A program made the translations under genes and the position numbers. This document shows positions 2,878-19,028 of a stretch of DNA of 64,000 nucleotides, piece after piece. How positions within the stretch are numbered: position 1 is the first letter of the stretch; the number at the start of each line of letters is the position of its first letter. The stretch lies in IMG/VR virus record IMGVR_UViG_3300042396_000723, positions 1 to 64,000 of that record, one strand, 5' to 3'. The notes below the pieces were generated by a model, which made no database searches, was not told where the DNA came from, and saw nothing but the letters and a program-made list of their open reading frames with translations. Source of the DNA: a virus.

Positions 2878-5800
2878 ATGTCAAGTTCAAGTCTTAGCGG
2901 AGTCAGTATCACGATCTCGGCAAGTAATCAAGTTTCTCCTGTCCTTAGATCAATTCAAGAGGAGTTGCTTGGGCTGCGCCAACCCCTTCAGGTACTTGAC
3001 TTGTTTCGGAGTTCCTTTGGGGGGATAACGTCATCTATTGTTCAGGCTACGACAACTATCGGCTTCTTTGGGCAGGGGATGTCAACGCTTCGAGGGTTGG
3101 TTTCTAACGGCCCGTTTAAATTGTTGATTGGACAAACAGTCGAATTACATGGGCAGTTGCTATCGGTCGCTTCAACTATGGCGGCAACCTCAAAAATTAT
3201 TAGTAACGGGTTTGAAATTAAAGATCCTACACAAGCGATTCAGGCACTCAACCAACCTATAAACGAACAGATTAGACAGTTAAGAATTGATTCTATTGAT
3301 CTAGTTGGGGTCACGTCTAAGCAGTTGATTCCAGTATTTCAACAGGTGGCACAGGGTGCGACACCGATTGGAGCAACCCTAAGCGACGCAAGGAGTTTAA
3401 CCATTGACTTTGCAGCCGCACTGGGAACTTTACAAGTTCCATTGTTTCAAAGTAGGCAAGAAATTCAATCAATTTTTCTAGGAACAATTGATATGAATTC
3501 TATCCTGGCTAAATCGTTGGGGATAACTAACGTGATGGTTGCCAAGTGGAAGGCTCAGGGAACTTTGGTGCAGGAATTGACCACGCGATTGTCTGCATTT
3601 AGGGCCGGGAACAAATTGGCAGCCCAGAGTTTTTCTGGGGTAACTTCAAACATTCAAGAGATGTTTGAATTGATAGGACAAAGATCGGGGGAAAAACTAT
3701 TAACACCTTTGACTCAATCCCTAAACGAAGTCTACAAGTTTTTACAAACGAACCTTGATATGTTGGTGGGTGAATCGGGGAAGGTTACAGATCAGATCCT
3801 TCGCGCGGGTCTAGCCTTCCAGTCTATTTTTAAAACGGTTCTTGGGGATGTGGTGACGGTCTTTAAGGATGTTCCATTATTCTTGTTTACCTCTCTAGCG
3901 AACGCATTGGAGGCACTGAATCAAGGTCTGGGATTCACGATGGCGGTATTGCGTCCTGCCATTAACCTGTTCGCGGCATTATCAAGTGCGGTAGCTCCCC
4001 TCGCTTCTGGTTTCCTTGTGATTGCCCTTCAGGTAAAAGCCCTCACTGTTGGAGTAGGAATACTTTCTAAGGCTTTTGGGGTATTAGGCGGCATTCTGTT
4101 ACCCGGTGTCGGGCAAATCTTCCCCCTCCTTGTTGCTAACGCAGGTGCTTTAGGCGCTGCTTTTACGGGGCTTGGGGGAGCAACTATCTTCAGTTCTGTA
4201 GGTATGGCTCAATTCTCTGCCAACCTTCAGCGAATACCCGGCGCAATGACGTTAATGGCTTCTGCTACGGCAGCGTTAGGGAATCTTCTCAGGACAGTTG
4301 GCTTGGCGGTTGTCGCATTTGGTGCGTTCAAAATAATTGATGAATTTATCCTCAAAAACAGGGGGTTAATGGAAGTCCTTGGGGGTGTATTTGGGGGGTT
4401 GGGTGAAGTTGTCAATATTTTAATCGGGTCTTGGCAGTCAGCCTTGATCACTTCGACTGTTGTTGTCGGGGGGTTAGCGATCGCATTCCGCGCTCAATTA
4501 ATCCCTGCGGTTTTGTCGTTTATCTCAATTCAATTAGCTGGTGTTGTAACCAGTTCTGCATCTGCATTTGTGTTTCTTGCCGGAGTATTGACTTCTCTTG
4601 GATTTAGTAGTATGGCTATCACGGCCGGAACTGCTGCACTTCATTTACAAATGCTGTCTGCGTCTGCAAGTCTGGGAACATTGACTATGGGAGGGTTGGC
4701 TCTTGCTATTAAAAGTGTAGCCTTATCTGTAGCTACGTTACTCGCTCCTTTGGCTGCTGTAACTGCGGTAGTGGGAGGTGTTGGACTTGTTCTTTATAGT
4801 CAATCCTTAAAGGATTCTACAGAAGCCACACAGGAGTTAGCTAATAGAACTGAAGAATATGGGGATTTAGCTATTGATTCGCTTGAGAAACTGTCTGTGG
4901 CTCAGAAAAAGCAACAGGAGTCAGAGAAATCAGGGATTAGATTGACCGACGAAGAATATAAAAACAATCAAAAACTTCAAAATCAAGCCAAACTCAGGAT
5001 CGGATTAATAGAGGATCAAATAACTGCATTAAAAGAGCAGGAAAAAACAGTTAAGGGTGATGCCAACAAGTCTAACATTCAATCTCAAATAGGTGAGCTA
5101 GAAAAACTAAAAACGGCATTAGCTCAAGCATCTTCTAATGTGGTTATTGCACCAAAAGATTTAATGGTATTGGGGACGGCGTTAGAACAGTTAAAGAAAA
5201 AAGCAAATGAAGCTATGGACGCAATTCTAAAACCATCTGGAGATCAGGAGGTGTTTAAGAAAAAGGCATCCGAGGTTATTGAATTTAACATGGCTTTGTT
5301 AGAAATGGGGCAAACAATTGATAAGGATGTTATTACTAAACTACGTCAGTTAGCTAACGATACAAGGTTAGATCAAGAGGTTCAACGCAAGGCACAGGAA
5401 ACAATTACTAAAGTCATTGAGCAGGAAAGCAAAAAGCGATCCGATACTATTGCAAAACAAAAAGCAGAGGTAGAATCTCAACAAAAAAACGGGGAGATAG
5501 GAGTAAGGAAATCGGAAAAGTTAATAACTGATTTAACTATCAAGGAATTAGAGGAACGGAAATCAGCCCAACAAGAAATCCAGTCCGAGCAACGAGCTTT
5601 TGGAAACATTGAAGCAGCCCGAAAAGCAGGGGAAGAAATCAAGAAAATAGAATCAGATATTACTAAAGCAATTGCAGAGGAACGGTCTAAACGAAACGAG
5701 GAACTGGTTAAAAACTTTCAGGAGCAACAGTCAATTATTGAGGGGTATCTCGCCCAAGGATTAACCACAGAGAAAAACTACAACAACCAAAAATCACAGT

Positions 5801-7926
5801 TACAAATCGAGGGATTGGACGAACAAATTAGGCAGCAGCGAAACAAATTAGGAAAATTAGCAGGGGATGATAAAGAAGGTCGGGAGGCTATTAACGCCGA
5901 GATAGGGAAACTCCAAGTTCAACGGCAAAAAACAATTAAGGACGGTTATGATCAAGAGCTTTCTACCCTTGAAAAACAACTCCAGAAAACCGTTGATTTA
6001 GTCAAAGAGGCTGAATTAATTAGACAAAGTGAAGTTCAGAAGTCGTTTAATGAATTTGGAGGTAATCAGAATTTAATTAACGAGGAAAATGTAAAAAACA
6101 ACCTTAAGACCCTTGAGGCTGAATACAGTAACACGGTTAAAAAATTAAAGGAAACAAAATCTCAACCAGCACTATCAGATCCCCGACTAGAGACTGACAG
6201 ACAAACTAAAATCAGAAAGTTAAGACAAGAACAACTCCAACAATCTTTGGGGATGTTGAAAGTCGAGAAAGAAGCCTGGGATGCTCATACTCAAACCGTT
6301 TTAGGGAATATTGCCAAAGAAAACAATGCCCAACTATTAAGCATAGAAAAGCAGATTAATAGCGGTAACGTACTGAGGGAATTAGAGGGGGCTGCAAGTG
6401 CTACCGATAAAGTTCAGGAGTTGCAAGTTCTACTTAGTCGAGAAAAAGACATTAATAAGCAAGCCGAGTTAAGGTTGTCCCTAGAGAAAGCTATCAGGGA
6501 AGAACGGGAAGCCTGGGGAGCGTTGGGGATTGCCGAAATTGAAGCAATTAACAATCTTGAGTTAATCGCCTTAAAAAATCTGCTAAACCAAGGGAAAATT
6601 CTCAAGGAAGAATACGATCTGAAAATAGCACAGCAAGCCATAGAAACATTACAAAAACGAATTAGTTTAGAGACGGATGTTGGCAAGAAAATCAAGCTCC
6701 AATTACAGCTAGTTGAAGAACAAGGGCGGTTGATTGATGCAAACGTAAGGAGATACGAAGCAGGGTTAAACAAGGAAGCACAAGCCTACGAGAACACCAT
6801 TAAACGCCAGAATAATGAACTAGACAATCAGAGTCGGAAATTCGATATTCTCAATAAAGCCCTTCAGATGCGTTCGGAATTACAGGACGCACAGAAGGGG
6901 GTGTTTGACGCGGCTAGTAGCTTTTACTCAGGGGAATTAGATGCTTTAGTCCAAGGGGAACGCTCCGAACGGAAGAAAAAACAACTTGCAGAATTAATCT
7001 CGGCTATTAAATTAAAATCAGCAATACAGCAAGCTGAATTTGAGAAACAAAGTCTGATATCCCAACAATTAATGAAAACCATCGAGCTTGAACGGGAGAA
7101 AATAGCTGCTAGAAGGGCGCTGAATGATGCGAAAATTGAAAAAAGAAAAGCTGATAATGCTCTTAAAGTAGCAAAAAAAGATCCTAGAACAACTCCAGAA
7201 CAGTTAGAGGAGCTGCAAACAGCGGCAGATATAGCAGGGGAGAACGTTGGCTACCAAGAGCAAAATTTGGGTTTATTACGAAAACAAGAATTTAACCAGT
7301 CAAAGGTTTTTAAACTCCAGAGAGAAGCGTTAGAATTCCGCAGTCAAGGGGCTATTCGTTCGGCACAGGTAGACTTAGCGAACAACACCAGTAACAGATC
7401 ATTGAGACGACAGCGTTTTGCTGATATTACATCCAGTGTGCTTGATAGTTTTGGAGTAGACAGTATAAATGATCTAACGGGTCGAGCCGCGGCGACGGGA
7501 GAACAAGCCCTCAGAGAAAGTGGATTAAGGGGGGGTAGAAGACTTCCAGGGGGATTATCAGCAGAAGAACAGATGCGAAGCCTTAGAGGGGATTCTGGGG
7601 ATTTTTCTGGTGCAACAGGTAGCGCACCTTCTGAAATCTACAAACTAACTGGCGGACTCGGTGGGGGGTCGGCATCATCTCCTCAATTAACAGATCCTCT
7701 CAAACTTCCCTCTGCTTTGTCTCCTGTCCTATCCCCCATCGTCTCCCCAGACTTCTCACGGGCATTGCAGCAAGCTACAGGGAAAGGTCAAACGACAATT
7801 TCTCCAACAATAAATATCCCGATTACCGTAAACGGCGATCAAAAAGTGGGAGAATCAATTAAGAAACAGGTTGAACCAAGGTTAGAAAATGTTATTCAAC
7901 GAATGGTTAATCTCTCCCGTAATTAG
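2878..7926 (+). CDS. tail tape-measure-like protein
   Basis: 1682 aa; N-terminal third is Gly/Ala-rich with multiple hydrophobic segments, remainder is long K/E/Q-rich coiled coil; size and composition typical of a TMP. Confidence 0.6.
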   Translation: MSSSSLSGVSITISASNQVSPVLRSIQEELLGLRQPLQVLDLFRSSFGGITSSIVQATTTIGFFGQGMSTLRGLVSNGPFKLLIGQTVELHGQLLSVASTMAATSKIISNGFEIKDPTQAIQALNQPINEQIRQLRIDSIDLVGVTSKQLIPVFQQVAQGATPIGATLSDARSLTIDFAAALGTLQVPLFQSRQEIQSIFLGTIDMNSILAKSLGITNVMVAKWKAQGTLVQELTTRLSAFRAGNKLAAQSFSGVTSNIQEMFELIGQRSGEKLLTPLTQSLNEVYKFLQTNLDMLVGESGKVTDQILRAGLAFQSIFKTVLGDVVTVFKDVPLFLFTSLANALEALNQGLGFTMAVLRPAINLFAALSSAVAPLASGFLVIALQVKALTVGVGILSKAFGVLGGILLPGVGQIFPLLVANAGALGAAFTGLGGATIFSSVGMAQFSANLQRIPGAMTLMASATAALGNLLRTVGLAVVAFGAFKIIDEFILKNRGLMEVLGGVFGGLGEVVNILIGSWQSALITSTVVVGGLAIAFRAQLIPAVLSFISIQLAGVVTSSASAFVFLAGVLTSLGFSSMAITAGTAALHLQMLSASASLGTLTMGGLALAIKSVALSVATLLAPLAAVTAVVGGVGLVLYSQSLKDSTEATQELANRTEEYGDLAIDSLEKLSVAQKKQQESEKSGIRLTDEEYKNNQKLQNQAKLRIGLIEDQITALKEQEKTVKGDANKSNIQSQIGELEKLKTALAQASSNVVIAPKDLMVLGTALEQLKKKANEAMDAILKPSGDQEVFKKKASEVIEFNMALLEMGQTIDKDVITKLRQLANDTRLDQEVQRKAQETITKVIEQESKKRSDTIAKQKAEVESQQKNGEIGVRKSEKLITDLTIKELEERKSAQQEIQSEQRAFGNIEAARKAGEEIKKIESDITKAIAEERSKRNEELVKNFQEQQSIIEGYLAQGLTTEKNYNNQKSQLQIEGLDEQIRQQRNKLGKLAGDDKEGREAINAEIGKLQVQRQKTIKDGYDQELSTLEKQLQKTVDLVKEAELIRQSEVQKSFNEFGGNQNLINEENVKNNLKTLEAEYSNTVKKLKETKSQPALSDPRLETDRQTKIRKLRQEQLQQSLGMLKVEKEAWDAHTQTVLGNIAKENNAQLLSIEKQINSGNVLRELEGAASATDKVQELQVLLSREKDINKQAELRLSLEKAIREEREAWGALGIAEIEAINNLELIALKNLLNQGKILKEEYDLKIAQQAIETLQKRISLETDVGKKIKLQLQLVEEQGRLIDANVRRYEAGLNKEAQAYENTIKRQNNELDNQSRKFDILNKALQMRSELQDAQKGVFDAASSFYSGELDALVQGERSERKKKQLAELISAIKLKSAIQQAEFEKQSLISQQLMKTIELEREKIAARRALNDAKIEKRKADNALKVAKKDPRTTPEQLEELQTAADIAGENVGYQEQNLGLLRKQEFNQSKVFKLQREALEFRSQGAIRSAQVDLANNTSNRSLRRQRFADITSSVLDSFGVDSINDLTGRAAATGEQALRESGLRGGRRLPGGLSAEEQMRSLRGDSGDFSGATGSAPSEIYKLTGGLGGGSASSPQLTDPLKLPSALSPVLSPIVSPDFSRALQQATGKGQTTISPTINIPITVNGDQKVGESIKKQVEPRLENVIQRMVNLSRN

Positions 7927-8601: not shown

Positions 8602-9138
8602 ATGTCAGATATTGTAAGATCAATCCGTGCAGAATTGAATCTAGGGGATAAAATTATTGATTGCTACCTATTCCCAGATGGAGAGAAACGGATCGGAATA
8701 GGTGGGGCGAGTATTGCTATCGGACGGAATAAAGAGTATTTGAGCAAGTCGGCTAAAAAGGGTACTAAAACGCTCAATGGCTTATGGGATATAGGTTACA
8801 CAGGTCGCCTAGAGGAAACCGAGATAAAAAATGATAGAGGTGCGACACGAAGTAAGACTATCTCAACCAGAGACTTTACAAAAGTAATCACATGGGACGC
8901 TGTAGTAAACAAAAATCAGAGTTCAATTGTCCTGTTAGCTGCTTTTGCTGAAACTGGGTTAGACGTAATTGTAGACAAGTTGTTCGACAATAAATCCGTA
9001 GATTTCCTACTGGAGAAAATTGTCCACTATACGAAATGGACTACAGAAGATCTCCAGGATGCCTTAAATGCCAACTATGACGATTGGAGCGTGATTGTGG
9101 AACAAGAGCAATTTTTGTTAGAGGGAGGGTTGAACTAA
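8602..9138 (+). CDS. hypothetical protein
   Basis: 178-aa ORF; stop overlaps the next start (TAATG). Confidence 0.55.
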   Translation: MSDIVRSIRAELNLGDKIIDCYLFPDGEKRIGIGGASIAIGRNKEYLSKSAKKGTKTLNGLWDIGYTGRLEETEIKNDRGATRSKTISTRDFTKVITWDAVVNKNQSSIVLLAAFAETGLDVIVDKLFDNKSVDFLLEKIVHYTKWTTEDLQDALNANYDDWSVIVEQEQFLLEGGLN

Positions 9139-9539
9139 TGAAACCCATCATAGAATCCAGAAAGTTTCCTATTCGGTTTTGCCACGTTATCCAGTGTGAA
9201 GGTTTTAGACTCCCTGATAGAGAATACCGAGTCACCATTGAATCAGCAATTTCTGTTGTCGGGTACGCCGAACTTAGACAACTTGATCCATTGACTGCGC
9301 TAAAGGAATTGGGGTTTAAGCATCGAGGGGAAATTATCAAAGTTAGAGATATTGAAACTCAAGTCATTTTTGAAACCTTGGGACTCCCCGATTTTAGTCG
9401 CCTAATATCTTTAGCATCAAGAATGGGGAAGCCTCACTCAGTGGCGTTTGTTGAGTCTATCGTTTCCACAGCCTTAGAAGATTGGTTTAGAGACTGCCAG
9501 AGGGAACAGATCGGGGTTGTAGGGGATTTAATCAGATAG
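9138..9539 (+). CDS. hypothetical protein
   Basis: In-frame ATG (MKPIIESRKF) overlapping the upstream stop; the track's longer GTG-start ORF from 9084 would overlap the previous gene. Confidence 0.5.
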   Translation: MKPIIESRKFPIRFCHVIQCEGFRLPDREYRVTIESAISVVGYAELRQLDPLTALKELGFKHRGEIIKVRDIETQVIFETLGLPDFSRLISLASRMGKPHSVAFVESIVSTALEDWFRDCQREQIGVVGDLIR

Positions 9540-9558
9540 TCGAATTAGATATCAAAAA

Positions 9559-9590
9559 GGCGCGGGGTTGAATCCGTGCCTAAGTTTTTT
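9559..9590. terminator. putative bidirectional intrinsic terminator
   Basis: GGCGCGG/CCGTGCC stem (one G-U) with loop GGTTGAAT, T6 downstream and A5 upstream; sits between converging + and - genes. Confidence 0.4.
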
Positions 9591-9620
9591 GGATTGGTTA
9601 ACGCAGTCTAAACGGAATTG

Positions 9621-9830
9621 CTAGGGATTGTGCGATCGCATACCATAATTTTTAGACATACGGAACCAGAAACAATCAAGGCAGAATTGAGAATTTGGCT
9701 TAACATCAAAACTAAATCCCAACCATCCATTTATGGGGTAAAAAGAAATACCATAATCACCCAAAAATATAAAGTCTGGCTCTTTTGTGTTTTCACTGCC
9801 GAGCAATACTGGATAAAAGTTTATGTGCAT
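9621..9830 (-). CDS. hypothetical protein
   Basis: 69-aa ORF continuing the minus-strand block; an overlapping plus-strand ORF (9618-9851) was not chosen. Confidence 0.3.
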   Translation of the reverse strand: MHINFYPVLLGSENTKEPDFIFLGDYGISFYPINGWLGFSFDVKPNSQFCLDCFWFRMSKNYGMRSHNP

Positions 9831-10067
9831 TCAGTCCTCACATGGGGTTGACATTGGTTCTTGTTCAATCCTGTCAAAAACCTCTTTGATTATAGAGAAG
9901 TTTTTGACAGCTCGGTTTCCCGTGTAGATTTCTGTTTTCCCGTAAACTGTTCTTACTCTTAGGATTGGTAACTGTGAGTTTAAGTTACTGATTTGATATT
10001 CTTTGATGTCTTCGACTCTGATCATTGTTAATTCCTGTTTGGTGAAGTGATAGAGGGTGAAATTCAC
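9831..10067 (-). CDS. hypothetical protein
   Basis: 78-aa ORF. Confidence 0.4.
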   Translation of the reverse strand: MNFTLYHFTKQELTMIRVEDIKEYQISNLNSQLPILRVRTVYGKTEIYTGNRAVKNFSIIKEVFDRIEQEPMSTPCED

Positions 10068-10084
10068 CCTCTGGTTATTAGCTA

Positions 10085-10510
10085 CTAACCGAGTGATTGA
10101 CGGGCATCTCTCAGGATTTTGTCCATTTGTTCTTGTGTAATGTCCATATCAGGATTGCTTTTGATGCGCCCCGCGCTAAATGCTTTCCCTGCGTAGGAGC
10201 GAATCATGGGAATTACAGGAATTACCACGGGTCGGGGTCGGGGTTGGGTTGTTACAGGGCGCAAGGCTTTGTATGCGGTCATCCATTTATTAGTCTTAAC
10301 CGTTGCCCATTTACCGTTTAAAACCGTTCCATCTTTGGTTCGGATGAAGTGGATGGTTTGACCATCGTTTGTTAATTCAGTCCAACCATAGCGGATTTCA
10401 ATCGTCCCATCTGGGTGAACCATTTTGATTGTGTCGATTGTGATTCCGTCAAACGTTGAGGTGTAGCTTGAGATGATCTCTGTGGTGATTGTGGCGATTT
10501 GAGCTACCAT
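10085..10510 (-). CDS. hypothetical protein
   Basis: 141-aa ORF. Confidence 0.5.
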   Translation of the reverse strand: MVAQIATITTEIISSYTSTFDGITIDTIKMVHPDGTIEIRYGWTELTNDGQTIHFIRTKDGTVLNGKWATVKTNKWMTAYKALRPVTTQPRPRPVVIPVIPMIRSYAGKAFSAGRIKSNPDMDITQEQMDKILRDARQSLG

Positions 10511-10574
10511 TGATTTAAGTCCTTAATTGGGTTGAGTGGAGTCGGTTGGGTGTCCCTGGTAAGTTGCTCGACCG

Positions 10575-10680
10575 ACTTTGTTTTACTTCTATGTTTTACA
10601 TCTTAACCGATTTGTTTTACGCTGTCAAGTAGTTTTACATCAGTCTTACTTATATGTTTTACTCGTAAGTAAGACTGATA
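10575..10680. repeat. iteron cluster A: 5 copies of GTTTTAC plus a 12-bp inverted repeat (CAGTCTTACTTA...TAAGTAAGACTG)
   Basis: GTTTTAC at about 10580, 10593, 10614, 10632, 10656; perfect IR at about 10641-10677; TGTCAAGTAGTTTTAC is shared with cluster B. Confidence 0.55.
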
Positions 10681-10724
10681 ACTTATAGATGGGTGAACTC
10701 CCCTCTAGGGAGGGGATTTGGGAT

Positions 10725-10991
10725 TTATTTAATTTTCGATTTTAACCATTTGATGATTTCGGTAACTTTCACGTCTTCCGGGAAGGTTTCAGTATCGGTA
10801 AACTCTAAGCCCGTGGGGTCGTACTGGGTAAGTTCGGCTTCTAATTGACCCTCAAAGGTAAGCGTTAAGAACAATTCGCCGTCAGATGGTAAAAAGTCAA
10901 TTTCACTATTTCCAAAGCGATAGAAGAAACCTTCTTCTGTAATCATCTTTTCAGATGCGAATGTCAGGAGCCGTTCTGTTTGGTTATTCAT
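10725..10991 (-). CDS. hypothetical protein (acidic), flanked on both sides by iteron clusters
   Basis: 88-aa ORF. Confidence 0.45.
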   Translation of the reverse strand: MNNQTERLLTFASEKMITEEGFFYRFGNSEIDFLPSDGELFLTLTFEGQLEAELTQYDPTGLEFTDTETFPEDVKVTEIIKWLKSKIK

Positions 10992-11059
10992 GATAGTTAG
11001 GTGCGGTTGTAGTGTTTGCGGGCTTTTCTTTACCCTATGTATAACAGTATAACAATTCT

Positions 11060-11190
11060 GTCTTACTTTGTCAAGTAGTTTTACTTTAGTATTACTTATA
11101 GGTTTATACTGTTTTACAGAATTACAATTAATCTTACTTATATGTCTTACTATTCGTTTTACATCGTGCTACACTTGAAGGTAAGACACA
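11060..11190. repeat. iteron cluster B: repeated GTTTTAC and CTTACTTATA(T/G)G motifs upstream of the RHH gene
   Basis: TGTCAAGTAGTTTTAC, ATTACTTATAGG, TCTTACTTATATGTCTTAC, CGTTTTAC and inverted GTAAGACA all within about 130 bp. Confidence 0.55.
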
Positions 11191-11204
11191 GAAGGAGTAA
11201 ACCG

Positions 11205-11567
11205 ATGGCGGCTAACAAATTAATTAACTTTCGATGCCCTGATGACTTACTTGCTGCAATAGAAGCCTACGGACGGGAACACTACCCTAACGGTCGGGGT
11301 AATACTGATTTTGACCAATCCAAAGCATTACGGGATATTCTAATTTCTGGCTTGGAGAGTTTAACCAATGGAGAAGTAAAGATAGAGAAAAAGGCTGACA
11401 AGCCCAAATCAAGCTATGCCGACCTATTGGATAGGATTGCCAAACTAGAGGCGCAGCAACCCACAGCTATTGATCCAACTATTATGGCGCGGCTAGATGC
11501 GATGGAGGCTGCAATCGCATTTGAGAAGGTGATGGGGATTTTGAAACAAATTGAAACCCCTAGTTGA
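11205..11567 (+). CDS. ribbon-helix-helix (CopG-like) transcriptional regulator
   Basis: GAAGGAG sits 7 nt upstream of the internal ATG; N-terminus MAANKLINFRCPDDLLAAIEAY fits an RHH fold; track start 11142 lies inside the iterons. Confidence 0.5.
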   Translation: MAANKLINFRCPDDLLAAIEAYGREHYPNGRGNTDFDQSKALRDILISGLESLTNGEVKIEKKADKPKSSYADLLDRIAKLEAQQPTAIDPTIMARLDAMEAAIAFEKVMGILKQIETPS

Positions 11568-11605
11568 TTTTTAATCGGAATCAAGCAATTATCACTAATT
11601 AAAAA

Positions 11606-11633
11606 GGGTAGAGGTTCAATCTCTACCCTTTTT
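11606..11633. terminator. bidirectional intrinsic terminator
   Basis: GGGTAGAG/CTCTACCC stem flanked by AAAAA and TTTTT, between converging genes. Confidence 0.7.
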
Positions 11634-11664
11634 AATGTTTGGTTTTAACTAAGTATTCTGCTAA

Positions 11665-12507
11665 TTACTCACCGATAATCATTTGGCGATCGCCTTTTTG
11701 ATTTGCCCATAATTCCCGAACCAATTCAACAGATTCAGCCGGAATATAGTCAGTCTGAACCGGACGCATGGCTTTAGAAATTAGATGATCATGTCCGCAA
11801 GATTCTAACCATTTTTCCAACTCCTTGCCAGACTTGAATTTTAATTCCTTGCCAAGTTGAGCTAAGGACTTCCCACGAAATACAGCTAACTGTTTTCCGT
11901 CTTCATTCATAACAACCGACTCGAATTGGGTTTCGGTTTCTCTCACCACCGCTTCGGGGCGACCTTGAATGAGTGCTAACATTCCTGCACCGTGAATGGT
12001 GACGATAGAGGCACTGGATTCTAAAACAAATCGCTGATCTTTCATGGAACTGGCTTGGGCTTCGGCAATTCGGACTTGCAACCGGAGTGCTTCTAATTCA
12101 TCGTGTTGCTGAGGAATGACGGTTTCCGCTTCACGGGTTTTAACAACAAAGTAAGATTGAGCTTGAGCGATTTCCGGTTTGCGGACATCACCATTCATGG
12201 CGATAAGATATGCCGCGTAACGAGACAGCTTATAGTCCTCTTGTCTACTTCCCCCTCCCTGTGGGCGTTTTACCAGATTGTCGGCTCCGGCAAAATGGTT
12301 TTCCGTCAACTCTCCTTGAATTTGACATGACACAATTGCCCGTTGAATCGCATCAGCAAATCTTTTCCATTGTCCATACCCTAATAACCCCATCAACTCC
12401 CGTGCCAACCAATACTCGCAACCTTCACGGTCAATGCGCTTAATGGAATCAAAAGGGGATTTGGATTGATTGTGATCTTGATTGCCAGACAATGCTAAAC
12501 TAGACAT
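11665..12507 (-). CDS. Bro-N domain protein (DinD-like, DNA-damage-inducible/antirepressor family)
   Basis: CEYWLARELMGLLGYGQWKRFADAIQRA matches the Bro-N core; start placed at the internal ATG preceded by AAAGGAGGG rather than the track's 12642. Confidence 0.55.
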   Translation of the reverse strand: MSSLALSGNQDHNQSKSPFDSIKRIDREGCEYWLARELMGLLGYGQWKRFADAIQRAIVSCQIQGELTENHFAGADNLVKRPQGGGSRQEDYKLSRYAAYLIAMNGDVRKPEIAQAQSYFVVKTREAETVIPQQHDELEALRLQVRIAEAQASSMKDQRFVLESSASIVTIHGAGMLALIQGRPEAVVRETETQFESVVMNEDGKQLAVFRGKSLAQLGKELKFKSGKELEKWLESCGHDHLISKAMRPVQTDYIPAESVELVRELWANQKGDRQMIIGE

Positions 12508-12699
12508 GGGAAACCCTCCTTTGGGTTTTTGTAAGTAATTTTTGAGAAAAGCTGGAGACTTACTACTTCCTCCGGCTTTTCTCATTCCTATATTATACAC
12601 CAAATTAACAGGAGCTTGAATAAAAAACGGGGTATTTAGCAAGTAAATAATATTAAAATTGTGCGGTGGTAAATTACATTAAATACCCTACAATAATCC

Positions 12700-13276: not shown

Positions 13277-13927
13277 ATGAGTAAACTTAAAATTACTGAG
13301 ACTGATATCTCTAAATTGACCCCTGATCCTAACAATGCAAGGAAAAGAACGCCCTTATCAGCAAGCGTTATTAGGAAATCAATTGAACAATTTGGGATGA
13401 CTCGGAGCATTGTCACCGATGAAAATGGCGTTATTTTGGCGGGTAACGGGGCGTTTGAAGAAGCGGGTCAATTGGGTATTGAAAGGGTGATCGTCGTCGA
13501 AACAACGGGTAATGAGATAGTGGCGGTGAAACGGACAAACCTTACTGCCGAACAGAAAACTCAATATGCCATTGCTGATAATACGGCTTCTGATTTCTCA
13601 ACATGGGATTTTGATATTTTGAGTGAGTTAACTCAGGAAATTGATCTATCTGAGTTTTTCCCTGATGATAAATTGAATGAATTATTAAAACAATTGGGGG
13701 ATAGCAAGAATGAAGGTATCAATGTTTTCCCTGATTATATCAACATGGACGATCAGGATGTAGAGACAACAGCAGAAAATTTTAGCTCGAATGTTAAGAG
13801 GAGTATAATTATTGATTTTCCTGCCGATGAGTATGACGAAGCTAAAAAACTATGTAACACAGCAAAGAAAAAAGGAGAAGATATTGGTGCTATTTTAGTA
13901 TCTGCACTAAAAGATGTTTTACAATAG
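13277..13927 (+). CDS. ParB/Srx-fold (ParB N-terminal domain-like) protein
   Basis: N-terminal ISKLTPDPNNARK...VILAGNGAFEEAGQLGIERVIVV resembles the ParB N-domain but with GNGA in place of GERR; acidic C-terminus. Confidence 0.55.
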   Translation: MSKLKITETDISKLTPDPNNARKRTPLSASVIRKSIEQFGMTRSIVTDENGVILAGNGAFEEAGQLGIERVIVVETTGNEIVAVKRTNLTAEQKTQYAIADNTASDFSTWDFDILSELTQEIDLSEFFPDDKLNELLKQLGDSKNEGINVFPDYINMDDQDVETTAENFSSNVKRSIIIDFPADEYDEAKKLCNTAKKKGEDIGAILVSALKDVLQ

Positions 13928-13951
13928 AGAACGAACCAGTAACCTGTACAA

Positions 13952-14746
13952 ATGAAAGAACAAAAATTAATAGTAACAAAACATGACTACAAAAGAAATG
14001 ATAGCCCAACAAGCCTCATTCCGAACGTAGTAGACTCAACTGTATTCCTTGATTCTATCGGTAACAAAGTTGGATTTTATCTCAGGAGTTTGCCGGATGA
14101 TGTTAATGATGTTTTAGAATATTGCAACAAAGAACTAAGAAGTGACAGAGTACCTAAATCGACAATGCACAGACAATTGCCACTGGGAACTAAAAGCAAG
14201 ACAGGAGCGTGGGAATATGATACTGTCGAACAGGAGTCTGTGATAATCGGATCTGTACCCGCAAAGCCTCACCAAAGAAGACCTTTTAATTCAATAAGTC
14301 AAGTTCATTTAAAAAATTCAGCGTCTGCTTTTATTAAAGGAATGATAGTATTAGCAAAGCTGTCAGAGAATCTGATTAAAGATATTATGCCAGAGCAGTA
14401 TTTTATTCAGAAAAAAATAATAGAAGAAAATGTTTTAAAAAAATTTAGATTTGGAGATTTATTTACTAGCTCTATTAGCAATTATAATATAGCTGCTAAT
14501 TATCATCAGGACAATAGAAATCTCAAGAACACTGTAAATGTTATTTACTCAAAAAAAGAAAATGCCAGTGGTGGAAATCTTCATGTGCCAGACTATGATT
14601 TGGTTTTTGATAGTGTTGACGGATCAATGATCTGTTATCCGGCATGGGCAAACTTACACGGAGTTACACCTATTTTACCCACAAAGAAAGGTGGATACAG
14701 GAATGGTATTGTTTTTTATCCATTAGGAGGTTTGCACAAAGAATAG
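13952..14746 (+). CDS. hypothetical protein, possible 2OG-Fe(II) dioxygenase fold
   Basis: C-terminal H-Q-D (YHQD), a distal His (LHGV) about 50 aa later and Arg (YRNGIVFY) fit the HxD...H...R spacing; weak assignment. Confidence 0.3.
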   Translation: MKEQKLIVTKHDYKRNDSPTSLIPNVVDSTVFLDSIGNKVGFYLRSLPDDVNDVLEYCNKELRSDRVPKSTMHRQLPLGTKSKTGAWEYDTVEQESVIIGSVPAKPHQRRPFNSISQVHLKNSASAFIKGMIVLAKLSENLIKDIMPEQYFIQKKIIEENVLKKFRFGDLFTSSISNYNIAANYHQDNRNLKNTVNVIYSKKENASGGNLHVPDYDLVFDSVDGSMICYPAWANLHGVTPILPTKKGGYRNGIVFYPLGGLHKE

Positions 14747-14822
14747 ATAAAAACATATGAATACTACGATTTTGTTGCATATTGAGGTTAACATAATCAT
14801 AAACCCTTCTACAACTTAAAAT

Positions 14823-15470
14823 ATGAGTAAGCCTAAAATTACTGAGACAGGTATCAGCAAGTTGACGCTATCTATTCACGAAACATTTCAACAAACGATT
14901 CAAGGTGAAGGGTTTTGGTCTGGGACTCCGTGCGATTTCATCCGATTACACGGGTGTCCGGTGGGGTGTTGGTTTTGTGATACTGGGTATAGTTCACAAG
15001 AAACAGTTAAGCCTCCATCAAAAACTTTTAAAACTCTCGACAATTTACTCAGGGAGTTAAAATCTGAGCATATTGTGATATCAGGCGGGGAACCTTTTAT
15101 CCATAAAGAGTTGCCCGAATTGGTTGATGCTCTTAATGATGCTGATAAATTTGTTGCGATTGAGACATCAGGGAGTTTTTTTCAACCCGTTAAAGACACC
15201 TGGATAACCCTTTCCCCAAAAGAACATCTAAATGATCGTTACCCCGTTTTAGACGAGCTATGGGGACTCGCTAACGAAATAAAATTAATTATCTCCACAG
15301 GGCAGGAGATTGATTTTTACAAGAAAAAGTTAGATGCGTTAAATATTCCTATCTACTTACAGCCGGAATGGAATGGCATAAATAAAACCCTTCCTTTAAC
15401 AATTGAATTAGTGATAGAATATAAGTATAGACTTTCTTTGCAAACTCACAAATTAATAGGGGTTCAATAA
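14823..15470 (+). CDS. queE: 7-carboxy-7-deazaguanine synthase QueE (radical SAM)
   Basis: TIQGEG followed by CPVGCWFC (Cx3Cx2C) cluster; length 215 aa. Confidence 0.8.
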   Translation: MSKPKITETGISKLTLSIHETFQQTIQGEGFWSGTPCDFIRLHGCPVGCWFCDTGYSSQETVKPPSKTFKTLDNLLRELKSEHIVISGGEPFIHKELPELVDALNDADKFVAIETSGSFFQPVKDTWITLSPKEHLNDRYPVLDELWGLANEIKLIISTGQEIDFYKKKLDALNIPIYLQPEWNGINKTLPLTIELVIEYKYRLSLQTHKLIGVQ

Positions 15471-15880
15471 TGTGGACACTGGTTAAGAAATTCACCTTTG
15501 AAGCGGCACACCAACTAACTAAACATCAAGGCAAATGCTCAAGACTTCATGGACATAGTTGGGTTGGATATGTTTATGTTTCAGGTGATAACCTAAAACA
15601 ATCAGGTAGTGAAGCGGGGATGGTGATGGATTATGGCGAAATTAAAAAAGTTATCAATCTTTTGGTCGATAATTATTTAGACCACCATTTTTTAAATGAT
15701 ACGACAAAACTAGAAAACCCTACCAGTGAAGAAATAGCGAGATGGATTTATGATCGAATCAAGCTCAAGCTCCCAGGACTTACAGCAATCAGAATCGATG
15801 AAACTTGCACAAGTCAATGCTTCTACTCTGAACTCAGTGATTTCTCTAGTAGAATCCGCAATGGTGACATTATGGGGTGA
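15470..15880 (+). CDS. queD: 6-carboxy-5,6,7,8-tetrahydropterin synthase QueD
   Basis: FTFEAAHQL...CSRLHGHSW...LDHHFLND...ENPTSEEIARWIY...ETCTS, hallmark QueD/PTPS motifs. Confidence 0.8.
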   Translation: MWTLVKKFTFEAAHQLTKHQGKCSRLHGHSWVGYVYVSGDNLKQSGSEAGMVMDYGEIKKVINLLVDNYLDHHFLNDTTKLENPTSEEIARWIYDRIKLKLPGLTAIRIDETCTSQCFYSELSDFSSRIRNGDIMG

Positions 15881-16373
15881 ACTACCAGAAGGAATGAAAG
15901 AGACACCTTCTAGGGTTGTTAAATACTGGGTAGAGATGTCTCAAGGTATAGGCGTTGATCCTTCCGAGTCTTTGAGTAAAGTTTTTGATTGTGGATATGA
16001 CCAGGTAGTGATTGAAAAGGGTATTCCTTTCACTTCATTATGTGAACATCACCTATTACCCTTTTACGGTGTTGCTCATATTGGCTATATTCCTAATCAA
16101 AAAGTTGTAGGGTTATCAAAACTCCCAAGGGTTTTAGAGGTGTTGGCAACACAACCCCAAATTCAAGAAAGATTAACTGAACAGATGGGCGATTTGATTT
16201 TTGATAAGTTGAGTTGTAAAGGTGTTGTAGTAATTTTAGAAGCGGAACATAATTGTATGAGTTGTAGGGGAGTTAAAAAGCATGGGGTGAAAACTATCAC
16301 CAGTTGTTTAAGAGGTGTTTTTATGACTGATTCCGCAGCCAGGGCAGAAGTTTTAAACCTGATTAAAGGATGA
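15798..16373 (+). CDS. folE: GTP cyclohydrolase I FolE
   Basis: CEHHLLPF, GLSKLPR, QPQIQERLT and EAEHNCM motifs; start uncertain (in-frame alternatives 15750 or 15861); overlaps the queD 3' end in another frame. Confidence 0.75.
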   Translation: MKLAQVNASTLNSVISLVESAMVTLWGELPEGMKETPSRVVKYWVEMSQGIGVDPSESLSKVFDCGYDQVVIEKGIPFTSLCEHHLLPFYGVAHIGYIPNQKVVGLSKLPRVLEVLATQPQIQERLTEQMGDLIFDKLSCKGVVVILEAEHNCMSCRGVKKHGVKTITSCLRGVFMTDSAARAEVLNLIKG

Positions 16374-16557
16374 CATGAGAATACATTTGATTATTCCTAT
16401 TAAGGGGGGATGCAAGTTGACTTTGCATCAAATGTTTTATTAGAACAGGAGTACACCAATAATTTATTCTCTTTTGCTTATCAAGAGTACGAAAAATATC
16501 AGCATCAGTATTGGAATGGATTAATTAATCGCGTCAACAGTACAAGGAATGAAAACA

Positions 16558-17268
16558 ATGGCTGATAAATGTTTGGTAATTTTAAGCGGCGGTCAAGATA
16601 GTACGACTTGCTTGGCGATCGCAAAAAGTAAATTCAAAGAAGTTCACGCAGTAACTTTTAATTATGGTCAACGGCATTTAACCGAAATTGAGAGCGCGAT
16701 CAAAATAGCTGAAAAGTTAAACTTAGCTTCCCATGAAATTATCGATCTAGGTCAGGGGATTTTAAAAGGTAGCTCCCCACTGGTCAGCAACAACGAATTG
16801 GGAGTTTATAAGAATGTTGATGAATTACCTGGCGGGGTAGAACCAACTTTTGTTTATAGCAGGAATATTTTATTTTTAACTATTGCATCTAATCGCGCCG
16901 CCGTTATGGGTATTAATGATATCTTTATCGGTGTCTGTGAAGCTGATTATGCGGGTTATTTTGATTGCAGACTAGATTTTATCAATGTCATGTCGAAAGC
17001 GTTAGGAGAGGGTGTTTATGGTTCGCCCGATGCTTTTAAAATTCATACTCCGTTAATGAGCTTAACTAAAGCCGAATCGGTATTATTAGCTAAGGATTTA
17101 TTGGGTGATGATTTTGATTCAGTGATGGAATTAACCCATACTTGTTATGCGGGTGTTAAGGGCGGATGTGGTAAATGTCACGCTTGTTTGATTCGTGACA
17201 GAGGTTTTCAAGAGGCGGGAATAGTTGACCCAATATGGAAGTTTAGAAATGTATCTGTATTTAGTTGA
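16558..17268 (+). CDS. queC: 7-cyano-7-deazaguanine (preQ0) synthase QueC
   Basis: PP-loop SGGQDS and C-terminal zinc motif CYAGVKGGCGKCHAC; internal ATG preferred over track start 16549. Confidence 0.85.
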   Translation: MADKCLVILSGGQDSTTCLAIAKSKFKEVHAVTFNYGQRHLTEIESAIKIAEKLNLASHEIIDLGQGILKGSSPLVSNNELGVYKNVDELPGGVEPTFVYSRNILFLTIASNRAAVMGINDIFIGVCEADYAGYFDCRLDFINVMSKALGEGVYGSPDAFKIHTPLMSLTKAESVLLAKDLLGDDFDSVMELTHTCYAGVKGGCGKCHACLIRDRGFQEAGIVDPIWKFRNVSVFS

Positions 17269-18361
17269 TCACTCATCCGAACGCGGACAACGCAAAGTTC
17301 TTACTGAGGAGAGATATATAAGCTATTTGCAATCCTACGCATTCGTTGGACAAGCGGGTTTTATTGACACTCAAAAATATTGGGAGGAGTTATTGAGGAT
17401 TCATTTAGCTGATACAACAGCAAAACTAAATGGTGACGTTAACATAAAAGAAGTTTTAGTTGATGAAAACAAACCAGAACATCTGTTTAGTTATGCCTAC
17501 CAAAACCACGAATCTCAATGGTCTGATTCTTGGAATCAGACCATTGAGAAAAACAAGAATATGAATATACATTTAGCGGGTCATTCTGTTAACGTTGACA
17601 TGGACAAAGTGGTGAAGCCTTTACATGAAAACCATTTAACAACATTTGCAGACCAGAAAGAAGTTAAAGATACTTTGTCCATTTTGGACAAAGTATCTGA
17701 CTTAAGACCTAGAGTAATAATTGACTCAGGAGCATTTACAGCTTTTACAACTGGGAAAATAATTAATCCTAAAGATTATGCTACATGGTCTTTAGACTTT
17801 CAGAAGCGATGGGAGCATAAAATGAAATCTCTAAGTTTTATGAACCTGGACGTTATTGGTAATCAAGATGATAGCTGGAAAAATCAATCAATACTTGAAT
17901 CGTTAGGAATGAAACCGATTCCTATTATTACTTTTGGATGTGATAAAAAGCATTTAATTAGAGCATTAGATAACTATGATTATATAGCTTTAGGCGGTTT
18001 AGTTCCCCATAGTAGGAATAAAATCAAACTTCAAAAATGGTTAGATTATTGTTTCAACATAATCATGGGAAGATATAAAGAAACGGGTGTTATGTCAAGG
18101 ATTCATTTACTCGGTATAACAACTGATTGGGTACTGAAAAGATATCCCTGCTATAGTTCAGATTCGTCATCATGGGTTGCTTGTTTAAGGTTTGGCGGCG
18201 GTGCTGCTGCGGGTTTAGATAAAATACCCAGATATAAAGAATCAGATGCCGCGTTATCAGCAACAATTCACACTTTACGATCAGAGGTAGTAAAATATAA
18301 AAAGATGGAAACTGAAGCAACAAATTTATGGAAATCAAGGGGAATAATCTGGGATGACTAA
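17249..18361 (+). CDS. dpdA: DpdA-like DNA-guanine transglycosylase (TGT superfamily)
   Basis: VIIDSGAFT (cf. TGT DSGGFQ), YIALGGL and RIHLLGIT motifs; sits directly after preQ0 genes; ATG at 17249 preferred over TTG 17225. Confidence 0.65.
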   Translation: MYLYLVDHSSERGQRKVLTEERYISYLQSYAFVGQAGFIDTQKYWEELLRIHLADTTAKLNGDVNIKEVLVDENKPEHLFSYAYQNHESQWSDSWNQTIEKNKNMNIHLAGHSVNVDMDKVVKPLHENHLTTFADQKEVKDTLSILDKVSDLRPRVIIDSGAFTAFTTGKIINPKDYATWSLDFQKRWEHKMKSLSFMNLDVIGNQDDSWKNQSILESLGMKPIPIITFGCDKKHLIRALDNYDYIALGGLVPHSRNKIKLQKWLDYCFNIIMGRYKETGVMSRIHLLGITTDWVLKRYPCYSSDSSSWVACLRFGGGAAAGLDKIPRYKESDAALSATIHTLRSEVVKYKKMETEATNLWKSRGIIWDD

Positions 18362-19028
18362 TTATAAAGTTGAGCGTGGGGTTTTGGTTGATAGTATTGA
18401 TATTGAACCTAACCCGTGGAACCCCAACAAAACATCTGAACGTCAGCAAGAGGCGATCACAGAATCATTAAATGCCTACGGTCAAATCATAGAATTACTG
18501 GTTAGACCGCATCCAGAAAAAAAGGGTAAATATCAAGTTATTGACGGGGAACATCGTTTAATCTCATTGAGCAACAAAGAGCAAAAAATCTTTGTTAATA
18601 TTATTTACGACTTACCCGATGTCGAAGCAAAGAAATTAACCATTATCCTCAATGAAACCAGGGGTGATGCTGATAAAATCGAACTTGCTAAACTATTGGA
18701 AGATATAAATAATGATTTAGGGATTGAAACGATCATAGGGTTGCCATACAGTTCTAATGAATTGGATGAGTTAATAAAATTAGCTGATATTGATTGGGAT
18801 AATTTTGCTAAGGGTGATGATGGTGACGAATTTGATGAAAATGATCCTACGACTGAATCATCGGAATGGATTACTGTAGTTGTTAAAATCCCTTCTGATG
18901 CGATGGAGAGAATACAAGATGTGTACAACATCGTAAAAGATGAAAGGGGTACTTTACACAAAGATAAAGCGATTGCATGGGGACAGGTTTTGGAGTCTAT
19001 GTCTGCTGATTACTTAGCTGGAAAATAG
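18354..19028 (+). CDS. ParB/Srx-fold (ParB-like nuclease domain) protein
   Basis: IDIEPNPWNPNK...QVIDGEHRL resembles the ParB/sulfiredoxin DGxHR core; overlaps the dpdA stop by 8 nt. Confidence 0.55.
   Translation: MTNYKVERGVLVDSIDIEPNPWNPNKTSERQQEAITESLNAYGQIIELLVRPHPEKKGKYQVIDGEHRLISLSNKEQKIFVNIIYDLPDVEAKKLTIILNETRGDADKIELAKLLEDINNDLGIETIIGLPYSSNELDELIKLADIDWDNFAKGDDGDEFDENDPTTESSEWITVVVKIPSDAMERIQDVYNIVKDERGTLHKDKAIAWGQVLESMSADYLAGK

What the first reader, a model, noticed from the sequence alone, without database searches (positions are those of the whole stretch)
10575..11190. Two iteron arrays flanking a small gene and preceding an RHH regulator
The region holds at least eight GTTTTAC copies, repeated CTTACTTATA(T/G)G motifs, a 16-mer TGTCAAGTAGTTTTAC present in both arrays, and a perfect 12-bp inverted repeat (about 10641-10677). 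The RHH gene (11205-11567) starts directly downstream. RHH proteins commonly bind such direct-repeat arrays as centromere-binding proteins or autorepressors, so this may be a partition or origin-like site, or a complex operator.
Basis: partly seen in the sequence, partly recalled or inferred. Interest (0 to 1): 0.55.

Follow-up and report, generated by a model that had tools for sequence, protein, structure and literature searches.

The report
Phage repressor gene with repeated operators
The two repeat clusters are duplicated promoter regions of a Planktothrix cyanophage, studded with a 7-base motif that is most likely bound by the small ribbon-helix-helix repressor encoded next door; this is an ordinary kind of gene switch, not a replication origin or partition site.

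Summary
Eight exact GTTTTAC copies, or 14 copies of the looser GTHTTAC, lie in two non-coding blocks at 10576-10690 and 11035-11190. No comparable cluster occurs anywhere else in the 64 kb window.

The window is a PaV-LD-like Planktothrix cyanophage. The shared 16-mer contains a perfect -35 hexamer (TTGACA) on the minus strand. Each block is therefore a leftward sigma70-type promoter module, one for the 88-aa gene and one for the 141-aa gene. Block B also holds the regulator gene's own conserved extended -10 promoter.

GTCTTAC/GTAAGAC is the 7-mer most widely shared upstream of family members in nine diverse loci, including phages, a Dolichospermum element and plasmid-like contigs, with 43-fold enrichment. 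PaV-LD lacks both the DNA-binding domain and any heptad cluster. One relative has the two blocks fused and the 88-aa gene missing.

Best reading: an autoregulated RHH repressor with heptad operators on duplicated, recombining promoter cassettes. No partition ATPase or replication initiator lies nearby, and the DnaB module is 37 kb away. The case is solid but ordinary: an unannotated RHH subfamily together with its operator motif.

The parts
10576..10690 (.). Array A: six direct heptads (GTTTTAC at 10580, 10593, 10614, 10632 and 10656; GTCTTAC at 10643) plus one inverted GTCTTAC (10669-10675). It lies between the 88-aa gene's hairpin and the 141-aa gene.
10600..10628 (-). Predicted leftward promoter P_L2: -35 TTGACA (10628..10623), 17-nt spacer, -10 TAAGAT (10605..10600), 10 of 12 matches. 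It would drive the 141-aa gene.
   Evidence: the -35 lies inside the shared 16-mer
10639..10679 (.). Perfect 14-bp inverted repeat (10639-10652 and 10666-10679) formed by a direct and an inverted GTCTTAC around a central GTTTTAC. It could be a dyad operator, or a hairpin of -18 to -20 kcal/mol if transcribed.
10696..10719 (.). G+C-rich stem-loop (CCCCTC-N4-GAGGGG) just after the stop of the 88-aa gene, conserved in L002, L006 and L011. It marks the cassette boundary and may act as a terminator.
10725..10991 (-). 88-aa acidic protein gene of unknown function (cassette cargo). It is present in L002, L006 and L011 (85 aa) and absent in L007, L010 and L012.
11035..11190 (.). Array B: a divergent promoter-operator region. 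Direct heptads are at 11060, 11078, 11089, 11111, 11131, 11144 and 11156, with an inverted one at 11181-11187. Degenerate copies are GTATAAC at 11039 and 11047 and GAATTAC at 11120.
11046..11074 (-). Predicted leftward promoter P_L1: -35 TTGACA (11074..11069), 17-nt spacer, TG-extended -10 TATACT (11051..11046), 11 of 12 matches. It would drive the 88-aa gene.
11167..11175 (+). Predicted extended -10 (TGcTACACT) of the RHH gene's own promoter. It is conserved as TGnTAYACT in L010, L011 and L012, and is flanked by heptads at 11144 (-35 zone), 11156 (spacer) and the inverted 11181 (about +1).
   Evidence: read from the sequence; the consensus scan did not call it
11205..11567 (+). 120-aa regulator: an N-terminal ribbon-helix-helix domain (residues 1-58, motif LINFRCP) and a C-terminal helical, probably coiled-coil, region (residues 71-117).
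11598..11636 (+). Intrinsic terminator (18-bp stem followed by a T run) that ends the monocistronic RHH transcript.
10085..10510 (-). 141-aa gene of unknown function, downstream of array A and its promoter; the second cargo gene.

Best explanation
The region is a transcriptional switch of a PaV-LD-like cyanophage. ORF 11205-11567 encodes a ribbon-helix-helix DNA-binding protein whose C-terminal helical region probably joins dimers into higher oligomers. Its recognition element is the heptad GTYTTAC (GTRAGAC on the other strand), one dimer per heptad.

Array B is the divergent control region between this gene and the leftward 88-aa gene. Heptads cover the -35 zone, the spacer and the start site of the regulator's own extended -10 promoter, so the protein would repress itself. 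Other heptads sit in the spacer of, and directly upstream of, the strong leftward promoter P_L1.

Array A is a paralogous copy of the leftward promoter-operator module. It places the next leftward gene (141 aa) under the same control. Cooperative filling of heptads spaced 11-22 bp apart, and possibly bridging of the two arrays 446 bp apart, would shut off the small accessory genes once the regulator has accumulated.

Because the modules are direct repeats, recombination between them adds or removes gene cassettes.

Shown here: the repeats and their enrichment, the promoter-like elements, the RHH fold, the co-occurrence of motif and domain, and the cassette polymorphism. Inferred: actual binding, the sign of regulation (repression), the stoichiometry, and any looping.
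For: (1) Heptads cluster only here in 64 kb.

(2) The 16-mer shared by both arrays contains a perfect -35 TTGACA on the minus strand. It has a 17-nt spacer to TGnTATACT (11 of 12 matches) in array B and to TAAGAT (10 of 12) in array A, each upstream of a leftward gene.

(3) TGnTAYACT, 30-35 nt before the start codon, is conserved in diverged loci, and heptads overlap it.

(5) An unbiased k-mer count over the 150 bp upstream of family genes in 9 non-redundant loci ranks GTAAGAC first (8 of 9 loci, 22 copies) and GTAAAAC third (6 of 9 loci), after the overlapping TAAGACA. GTYTTAC is 43-fold enriched over the rest of these loci. This includes homologues about 30% identical on plasmid-like or unrelated contigs (L013, L017-L019) and on Calothrix plasmids.

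(6) Negative control: PaV-LD keeps only the C-terminal half of the gene. It has no RHH N-terminal domain anywhere, and its 95 kb genome has no heptad cluster, with at most 2 per 120 bp.

(7) L007 has a single fused array (left part like A, right part like B) and no 88-aa gene. L011 has two arrays with different cargo.
Against: No binding or expression data exist. The window protein itself gets no significant Pfam, NCBIfam or PDB sequence hit. hhalign against Mnt aligns the domain in register but at under 5% probability. Foldseek found nothing. The AF2 monomer leaves the presumed strand as coil.

Most heptads of array B lie between the two divergent promoters rather than on core elements, so activation or a purely architectural role is not excluded. 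Helical phasing of the heptads is only suggestive (R 0.6-0.7 at 10.5 bp, p 0.1-0.2). Heptad positions are not clearly better conserved than the spacers among close relatives. The promoter calls are consensus matches only, and promoter-like sites are no more frequent in this region than in shuffled sequence (3 found, 4.5 expected).
Confidence: 0.7

Rival explanations
1. Partition (centromere) site: the RHH protein acts as a centromere-binding protein, like ParR, ParG or omega. It would coat the repeat arrays and recruit a ParA- or ParM-type NTPase to segregate a plasmid-like prophage.
Against: The RHH gene is monocistronic, between its own promoter and a strong terminator, and its neighbours are an 88-aa acidic protein and a Bro-N/Ant-like protein. 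The Walker A motifs in window ORFs of 80 aa or more are a DnaB helicase, a thymidylate-kinase-like protein, an FtsK-like protein and one in the unannotated 397-aa ORF 47888-49081 beside DnaB. None is a ParA-type deviant motif, and no actin-like family was hit. The heptads are spaced 11-22 bp apart, whereas omega needs at least 4 contiguous heptads to activate its ParA (PMC9499535). The system is absent from PaV-LD and nearly repeat-free in L012.
Confidence: 0.05
2. Replication origin: the heptads are iterons bound by an initiator, and the flanking AT-rich DNA melts.
For: The arrays are AT-rich direct repeats at roughly helical spacing. The Dolichospermum-type relatives have a Prim-Pol/AAA_25 gene about 1 kb downstream.
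Against: No initiator gene is adjacent. The replication module (the homologue of the PaV-LD 'replication-related protein' at 47888-49081, a DUF6475 protein, and DnaB at 49671-50987) is 37 kb away. Cumulative GC skew has no extremum at 10.5-11.2 kb. The arrays vary from none (PaV-LD) to 1 (L007) to 2 (window) among close relatives, which is unlike an essential origin. The repeats coincide with promoter elements.
Confidence: 0.03
3. The blocks are only mobile promoter-plus-stem-loop cassette boundaries (PeSL-like). Under this reading the heptads are promoter-context or recombination signals, or are bound by some other phage or host factor, and the neighbouring RHH protein does not read them.
For: The repeating unit has the layout promoter module, then small ORF, then stem-loop, then promoter module. 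L007 is exactly the product expected from recombination between the two modules. This is what was described for PeSLs in T4-type phages (PMC2839356, PMC4122927).
Against: This does not explain why the same heptad recurs upstream of RHH-family genes in unrelated contexts that lack the cassette, the 88-aa gene and the leftward promoter (L010, L012, L013, L017-L021). It also does not explain why heptads and the RHH domain are lost together in PaV-LD. The recombination role is compatible with the best explanation rather than an alternative to it.
Confidence: 0.12
4. Type II toxin-antitoxin module: the RHH protein is an antitoxin that autoregulates through the repeats.
Against: In the window no co-directional partner gene follows; a terminator comes directly after the stop. 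The C-terminal part is a conserved helical region rather than a variable toxin-binding tail. No toxin family was detected among the neighbours.
Confidence: 0.03

Closest known systems
Omega (ParB_pSM) repressor of inc18 plasmid pSM19035 and its heptad operators
   Different: Omega's heptads are contiguous with a 7-bp period, and at least 4 without gaps are needed for ParA activation (PMC9499535). Here the spacing is 11-22 bp. The consensus differs (WATCACW, from my own knowledge, versus GTYTTAC). Omega has a ParA partner (delta), and none is present here. This protein also has a 11-16 residue loop between the two helices and a C-terminal helical domain.
Phage P22 Mnt and Arc repressors (immI region)
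   Same: These are phage-encoded RHH repressors. Mnt has an N-terminal RHH plus a C-terminal coiled-coil tetramerisation domain (1mnt, 1qey), the same two-part layout as predicted here. The strand motif is similar (FNFRMP versus INFRCP) and aligns in register. Both systems control divergent promoters, and a Bro-N/Ant-like gene lies next door here (11665-12642).
   Different: Sequence similarity is not significant (hhalign probability under 5%). From my own knowledge, Mnt and Arc bind a single palindromic operator of about 17-21 bp, not arrays of mostly direct heptads. The Ant-like gene here is convergent and has no heptad cluster.
ParR/parC of plasmids R1, pB171 and pSK41 (type II partition)
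   Same: From my own knowledge, these are RHH proteins binding two blocks of short direct repeats at about one helical turn spacing that flank a promoter, and they autoregulate.
   Different: No ParM gene is present, the RHH gene is not the distal gene of a par operon, and the arrays are dispensable in relatives.
PeSL (promoter-early plus stem-loop) mobile regulatory cassettes of T4-type phages
   Same: Repeated promoter and stem-loop modules bracket small ORFs of unknown function, and recombination between modules explains the presence or absence of cassettes between close relatives (PMC2839356, PMC4122927).
   Different: This is a different phage group with a different promoter sequence. The modules here also carry a repeated operator motif tied to a linked regulator.
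Aca14, an RHH anti-CRISPR-associated regulator
   Same: It is an RHH repressor on mobile elements whose motif occurs upstream of its own operon and of neighbouring operons of small accessory or anti-defence genes (PMC13551039).
   Different: Aca14 binds an inverted repeat overlapping the -10 and sits at the end of the acr operon. Here the sites are mostly direct heptads and the regulator is transcribed divergently. No anti-defence function is known for the 88-aa or 141-aa proteins, and homology to Aca14 was not tested.

Membership tests
Ribbon-helix-helix (MetJ/Arc/CopG) superfamily | N-terminal strand followed by two helices (beta-alpha-alpha) that superposes on solved RHH domains | tested here: met
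Ribbon-helix-helix (MetJ/Arc/CopG) superfamily | Significant match to an RHH sequence model (Pfam RHH_1, Arc and others) or to a solved RHH sequence | tested here: not met
   The window protein has no family hit at E<=0.1. One of 17 close N-terminal domains matches RHH_1 at E 0.18. Three of 67 distant homologues match RHH_1, best E 6e-4. In the PDB profile search the best hit is a CopG protein at E 0.41. hhalign against Mnt gives under 5% probability.
Ribbon-helix-helix (MetJ/Arc/CopG) superfamily | Obligate dimer whose paired strands enter the major groove | not testable with these tools
   Only monomer prediction was available.
Plasmid partition system with an RHH centromere-binding protein (types Ib and II) | A cognate ParA- or ParM-type NTPase gene in the same operon or locus | tested here: not met
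   The neighbours are an 88-aa protein and a Bro-N protein. The Walker A scan and the family scans of the window found no ParA or ParM. ORFs shorter than about 100 aa and the part of the genome outside the window were not examined.
Plasmid partition system with an RHH centromere-binding protein (types Ib and II) | An array of repeated binding sites next to the gene | tested here: met
Iteron-type replication origin | Iterons adjacent to, or within, the gene of the initiator that binds them | tested here: not met
   No replication protein lies within 10 kb. The replication module is at 47.9-51 kb.
Iteron-type replication origin | Conserved as an essential element among close relatives | tested here: not met
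   The arrays are absent from PaV-LD, single in L007, and reduced to one direct and one inverted heptad in L012.
PeSL-type mobile regulatory cassette | A repeated composite of promoter and stem-loop bracketing small ORFs, with indels between relatives that end in the repeats | tested here: met
   The 71-nt module is duplicated, with promoters and the stem-loop at 10696-10719. In L007 the fusion junction lies in the shared module.
PeSL-type mobile regulatory cassette | T4-type early promoter sequence in a T4-like myovirus genome | tested here: not met
   The genome is PaV-LD-like, and the promoter is a plain TTGACA-17-TATACT. This is an analogy, not membership.
Aca (anti-CRISPR-associated) regulators | Encoded in an operon with a demonstrated anti-CRISPR or anti-defence gene | not tested
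   The cargo proteins have no hits in Pfam, PHROGs, NCBIfam or GenBank phage records. No anti-defence library was available.

The most novel reading that the evidence does not exclude
The RHH protein and its GTYTTAC heptads may form an Aca-like control system for a hypervariable set of early counter-defence genes in cyanophages. A strong consensus promoter would fire the small cargo genes (88 aa, 141 aa, others in relatives) on entry, and the divergently made RHH protein would then shut them off. The promoter-operator modules would double as the recombination sites that swap cargo between phages. The same neighbourhood in relatives carries phage-borne CRISPR arrays, which fits a defence/counter-defence hotspot.
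Probability: 0.15. Interest if true: 0.6.

Novelty: new member of a known kind. Interest (0 to 1): 0.33.

Why it matters
The work attaches a fold, a likely DNA motif (GTYTTAC) and a likely role to a protein family that carries no Pfam domain or functional name in any source searched. The family is widespread in mobile elements of filamentous, bloom-forming cyanobacteria (Planktothrix, Dolichospermum, Calothrix), with at least 68 clusters at 50% identity. It also gives a concrete, testable promoter-operator map for a group of cyanophages whose gene regulation and life style are essentially unknown. The motif can be used to predict the regulon in complete genomes, and the cassette polymorphism shows how small accessory genes are exchanged in these phages. 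It does not reveal a new principle: RHH repressors with repeated operators and promoter-bounded cassettes are both known.

Tried and rejected
- Sequence-based RHH assignment gave nothing significant: Pfam, NCBIfam and PHROGs, PDB sequence profiles and hhalign against Mnt.
- The cargo proteins (88 aa and 141 aa) have no family and no tblastn match in 50,697 phage records.
- An exact 15-mer scan of viral contigs for extra copies of the promoter module gave mostly chance hits.
- Helical phasing of the heptads was not significant (timed out, 106).
- Heptad columns are not clearly better conserved than spacer columns among relatives.
- Rfam found no RNA family in 9500-12000.
- I checked by eye whether the repeats fit an NtcA site (GTA-N8-TAC) or a DnaA box, and they do not (sequence).
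- A related-loci run with the broad alignment A4 failed because no stretch was conserved enough. The run with A2 returned only three mis-binned phage-like contigs.
- P0062 was not on record, and P0071 was listed without DNA.

Full report
**What the window is.** From 11424 onward the region is 88% identical to Planktothrix phage PaV-LD (HQ683709). The gene order matches PaV-LD: a 1682-aa tape-measure gene at 2878-7926, a Bro-N/'DNA damage-inducible' gene at 11665-12642, M23 peptidase, an FtsK-like gene, and a replication-related gene, DUF6475 protein and DnaB at 47.9-51 kb. The finding lies in the variable stretch between the tail genes and the Bro-N gene.

**Checking the observation.**
- GTTTTAC occurs eight times on the + strand between 10580 and 11162, out of 18 in the window.
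- The unit is really GTHTTAC: 12 direct and 2 inverted copies in the region, out of 34 in the window.
- With [GA]T[ACT]TTAC, each block has 7 sites within 120 bp. The maximum in 200 shuffles was 4, and the window has no other cluster of 3 or more.
- CTTACTTATAKG occurs twice exactly and once with a single mismatch, against 0.69 expected.
- The 16-mer TGTCAAGTAGTTTTAC is at 10623 and 11069. It is the core of a 71-nt duplicated module that is 77% identical between the blocks.
- The inverted repeat is 14 perfect bp, at 10639-10652 and 10666-10679.
- The small gene is real. The 88-aa ORF (10725-10991, minus strand) stays in frame in L002 across a diverged middle part and has an 85-aa homologue in L011.

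**Anatomy.** The promoter scan gave the key result. The reverse complement of the shared 16-mer contains a perfect -35 hexamer.
- In block B: TTGACA (11074..11069), a 17-nt spacer, and TG-extended TATACT (..11046), 11 of 12 matches, pointing at the 88-aa gene.
- In block A: TTGACA (10628..10623), a 17-nt spacer, and TAAGAT (..10600), 10 of 12 matches, pointing at the 141-aa gene at 10085-10510.
- The two 'iteron arrays' are therefore two copies of one leftward promoter module.
- Between them lie the 88-aa gene and a conserved G+C stem-loop at 10696-10719.
- Block B also carries the regulator's own promoter. An extended -10, TGcTACACT, sits at 11167-11175, about 30 nt before the AAGGAG ribosome-binding site and the ATG at 11205.
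- This element is conserved as TGnTAYACT in L010, L011 and L012, whose proteins are 46-65% identical.
- Heptads sit in its -35 zone (11144) and its spacer (11156), and an inverted one lies at about +1 (11181).
- Other heptads sit in the spacers of P_L1 (11060) and P_L2 (10614) and directly upstream of both -35 hexamers (11078, 10632).
- The regulator gene ends at a strong terminator at 11598-11636 (-29.7 kcal/mol, z -7.3), so it is monocistronic.

**Is the protein an RHH?**
- Sequence models say nothing. There is no Pfam, NCBIfam or PDB sequence hit, and only one weak PHROG of unknown function.
- The family (59 close clusters; 68 clusters at 50% identity with the N-terminal profile) has a very conserved N-terminus: LNFRCP-x2-LL-x-AID-x2-G...D-[RQ]-[ST]-K-[TA]-L-x-DI-x2-AGI.
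- With the deeper alignment, AlphaFold2 models residues 1-62 at pLDDT 88.9: an extended segment, helix 13-26, an 11-residue loop, and helix 38-53.
- RHH_1 is also the only DNA-binding Pfam family that recurs among distant homologues (3 of 67).
- hhalign places INFRCP on FNFRMP of Mnt in register, though without significance.
- Foldseek missed the fold.
- I accept the RHH fold. The unusually long inter-helix loop probably explains the failure of the sequence models.
- Residues 71-117 are two conserved helices. This is the same two-part layout as Mnt, whose C-terminal coiled coil makes tetramers (and my own knowledge).

**Does the protein read the heptad?** This cannot be shown by computation, but the comparative evidence is strong.
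- I took the 150 bp upstream of family genes in nine non-redundant loci: the window, a Dolichospermum MAG element next to CBASS and Prim-Pol genes (L010), L011, L012, a Mob_Pre plasmid-like contig (L013), L015, and L017-L019.
- The 7-mer shared most widely is GTAAGAC (8 of 9 loci, 22 copies). GTAAAAC (6 of 9 loci) ranks third, after the overlapping TAAGACA.
- GTYTTAC is 43-fold enriched over the rest of these loci.
- L013, whose protein is about 30% identical, has three direct GT[TA]AGAC units at 10-11 bp spacing ending in the same GTAAGACACAGG as the window. L017 has ten heptads in 120 bp.
- Two Calothrix plasmids carry GTAAGAC next to the start codon.
- The converse also holds. PaV-LD retains only the C-terminal half of the gene (ORF094R). 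It has no RHH N-terminal domain anywhere, and its whole 95,299-bp genome has at most 2 heptads per 120 bp.
- Motif and domain therefore travel together and are lost together.
- The heptad has palindromic ends (GT-NNN-AC), as expected for a symmetric dimer. That reading is inference.

**Cassette behaviour.**
- L007 (protein 90% identical) has one array and no 88-aa gene. Its left part matches block A up to the heptad before TTTGTC, and its right part matches block B from there on. This is the product of recombination between the two modules, or the state before a duplication-insertion.
- L011 has two complete modules with different downstream cargo.
- L012 has only one direct and one inverted heptad around the promoter and no divergent gene.
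- This layout parallels the promoter-plus-stem-loop (PeSL) cassettes of T4-type phages (PMC2839356, PMC4122927).

**Rival readings.**
- *Partition.* No ParA or ParM was found. The Walker A motifs belong to DnaB, a thymidylate-kinase-like protein, an FtsK-like protein and the unannotated 397-aa ORF 47888-49081, and none is a ParA-type motif (family scans). The gene is monocistronic. Omega-type centromeres need at least 4 contiguous heptads (PMC9499535), whereas these are 11-22 bp apart.
- *Origin.* The replication genes are 37 kb away, there is no skew turn at the site, and the arrays are dispensable in relatives.
- *Toxin-antitoxin.* No partner gene follows the RHH gene.
- *Another factor binds the heptads.* This is hard to square with the co-occurrence data.
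- Helical phasing and column-wise conservation were uninformative. Rfam found nothing.

**Verdict.**
- The locus is an autoregulated RHH regulator with GTYTTAC heptad operators spread over a divergent promoter region and over a duplicated copy of the leftward promoter. Together these control two small accessory genes, and the copies act as recombination substrates.
- It works most like omega (heptads in mixed orientation at several promoters) combined with Mnt (phage RHH plus an oligomerisation domain at divergent promoters). It is a member of neither family by sequence.
- Aca14 is the closest functional precedent for an RHH controlling its own and neighbouring accessory operons (PMC13551039). 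Whether the cargo is anti-defence is unknown.
- Novelty: a new, unannotated member of a known kind. Interest is modest.

Noticed in passing
L004 2464-3140, L005 5129-5805, L006 5305-5981, L007 1656-2285, L001 (PaV-LD) 6424-6534: Relatives of this phage carry CRISPR-like arrays with the 37-nt repeat CTCGCAATAGGTGATTGCCTGTTTTAAGGATTGAAAC at a period of about 73 nt: 13 copies in L004-L006, at least 7 in L007, and 2 in PaV-LD. They lie within 1-2.5 kb of the RHH locus. The window has none. Two 'spacers' in L007 resemble the start region of the 141-aa gene.
   Followed up: partly
L001 (PaV-LD) 5896-6135, ORF094R: The annotated PaV-LD ORF094R is a remnant of the RHH gene. Only the C-terminal helical half is homologous, and the DNA-binding N-terminus and both arrays have been replaced by unrelated sequence.
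   Followed up: yes
window 13277-19028: A DNA-modification cluster: a ParB-like protein (13277-13927), a Tet/JBP-type 2OG-Fe dioxygenase (13952-14746), a radical-SAM QueE-like protein (14823-15470), QueC (16549-17268), a TGT/DpdA-like transglycosylase (17225-18361) and a ParB_N protein (18354-19028). This suggests 7-deazaguanine, and possibly oxidised-base, modification of the phage DNA.
   Followed up: no
L015 about 1880-1945 and L016 about 1030-1060: In these relatives a 12-bp tandem repeat (TGTCCTGTTATG, 5 and 2 copies) is inserted inside the heptad array, between the upstream heptads and the RHH promoter. The contigs are binned as Acetobacteraceae and Terrimicrobiaceae, which is probably mis-binning of phage DNA.
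   Followed up: no
L008-L010 1-1720 and 4278-6351: In the Dolichospermum-type element the RHH homologue sits between a CBASS pair (DncV-like nucleotidyltransferase plus a SAVED effector) and a Prim-Pol/AAA_25 primase-helicase. The regulator family is therefore also part of non-PaV-LD mobile elements that carry defence genes.
   Followed up: no
window 8602-9138 and 9084-9539: Two adjacent paralogous genes of the same unknown PHROG (phrog_32599) overlap by 55 nt.
   Followed up: no
window 19459-20160: A GIY-YIG/NUMOD3 homing-endonuclease-like ORF lies directly after the modification cluster.
   Followed up: no
window 53.5-55 kb versus PaV-LD 10405-11538: PaV-LD is annotated with an integrase (ORF018R) downstream of the helicase-methylase block. 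At the corresponding place in the window the ORF list shows no ORF of that size, and that stretch was not scanned for protein families. The window does have a Cro/CI-type HTH protein (46916-47401) and a Rha protein (58760-59449).
   Followed up: no
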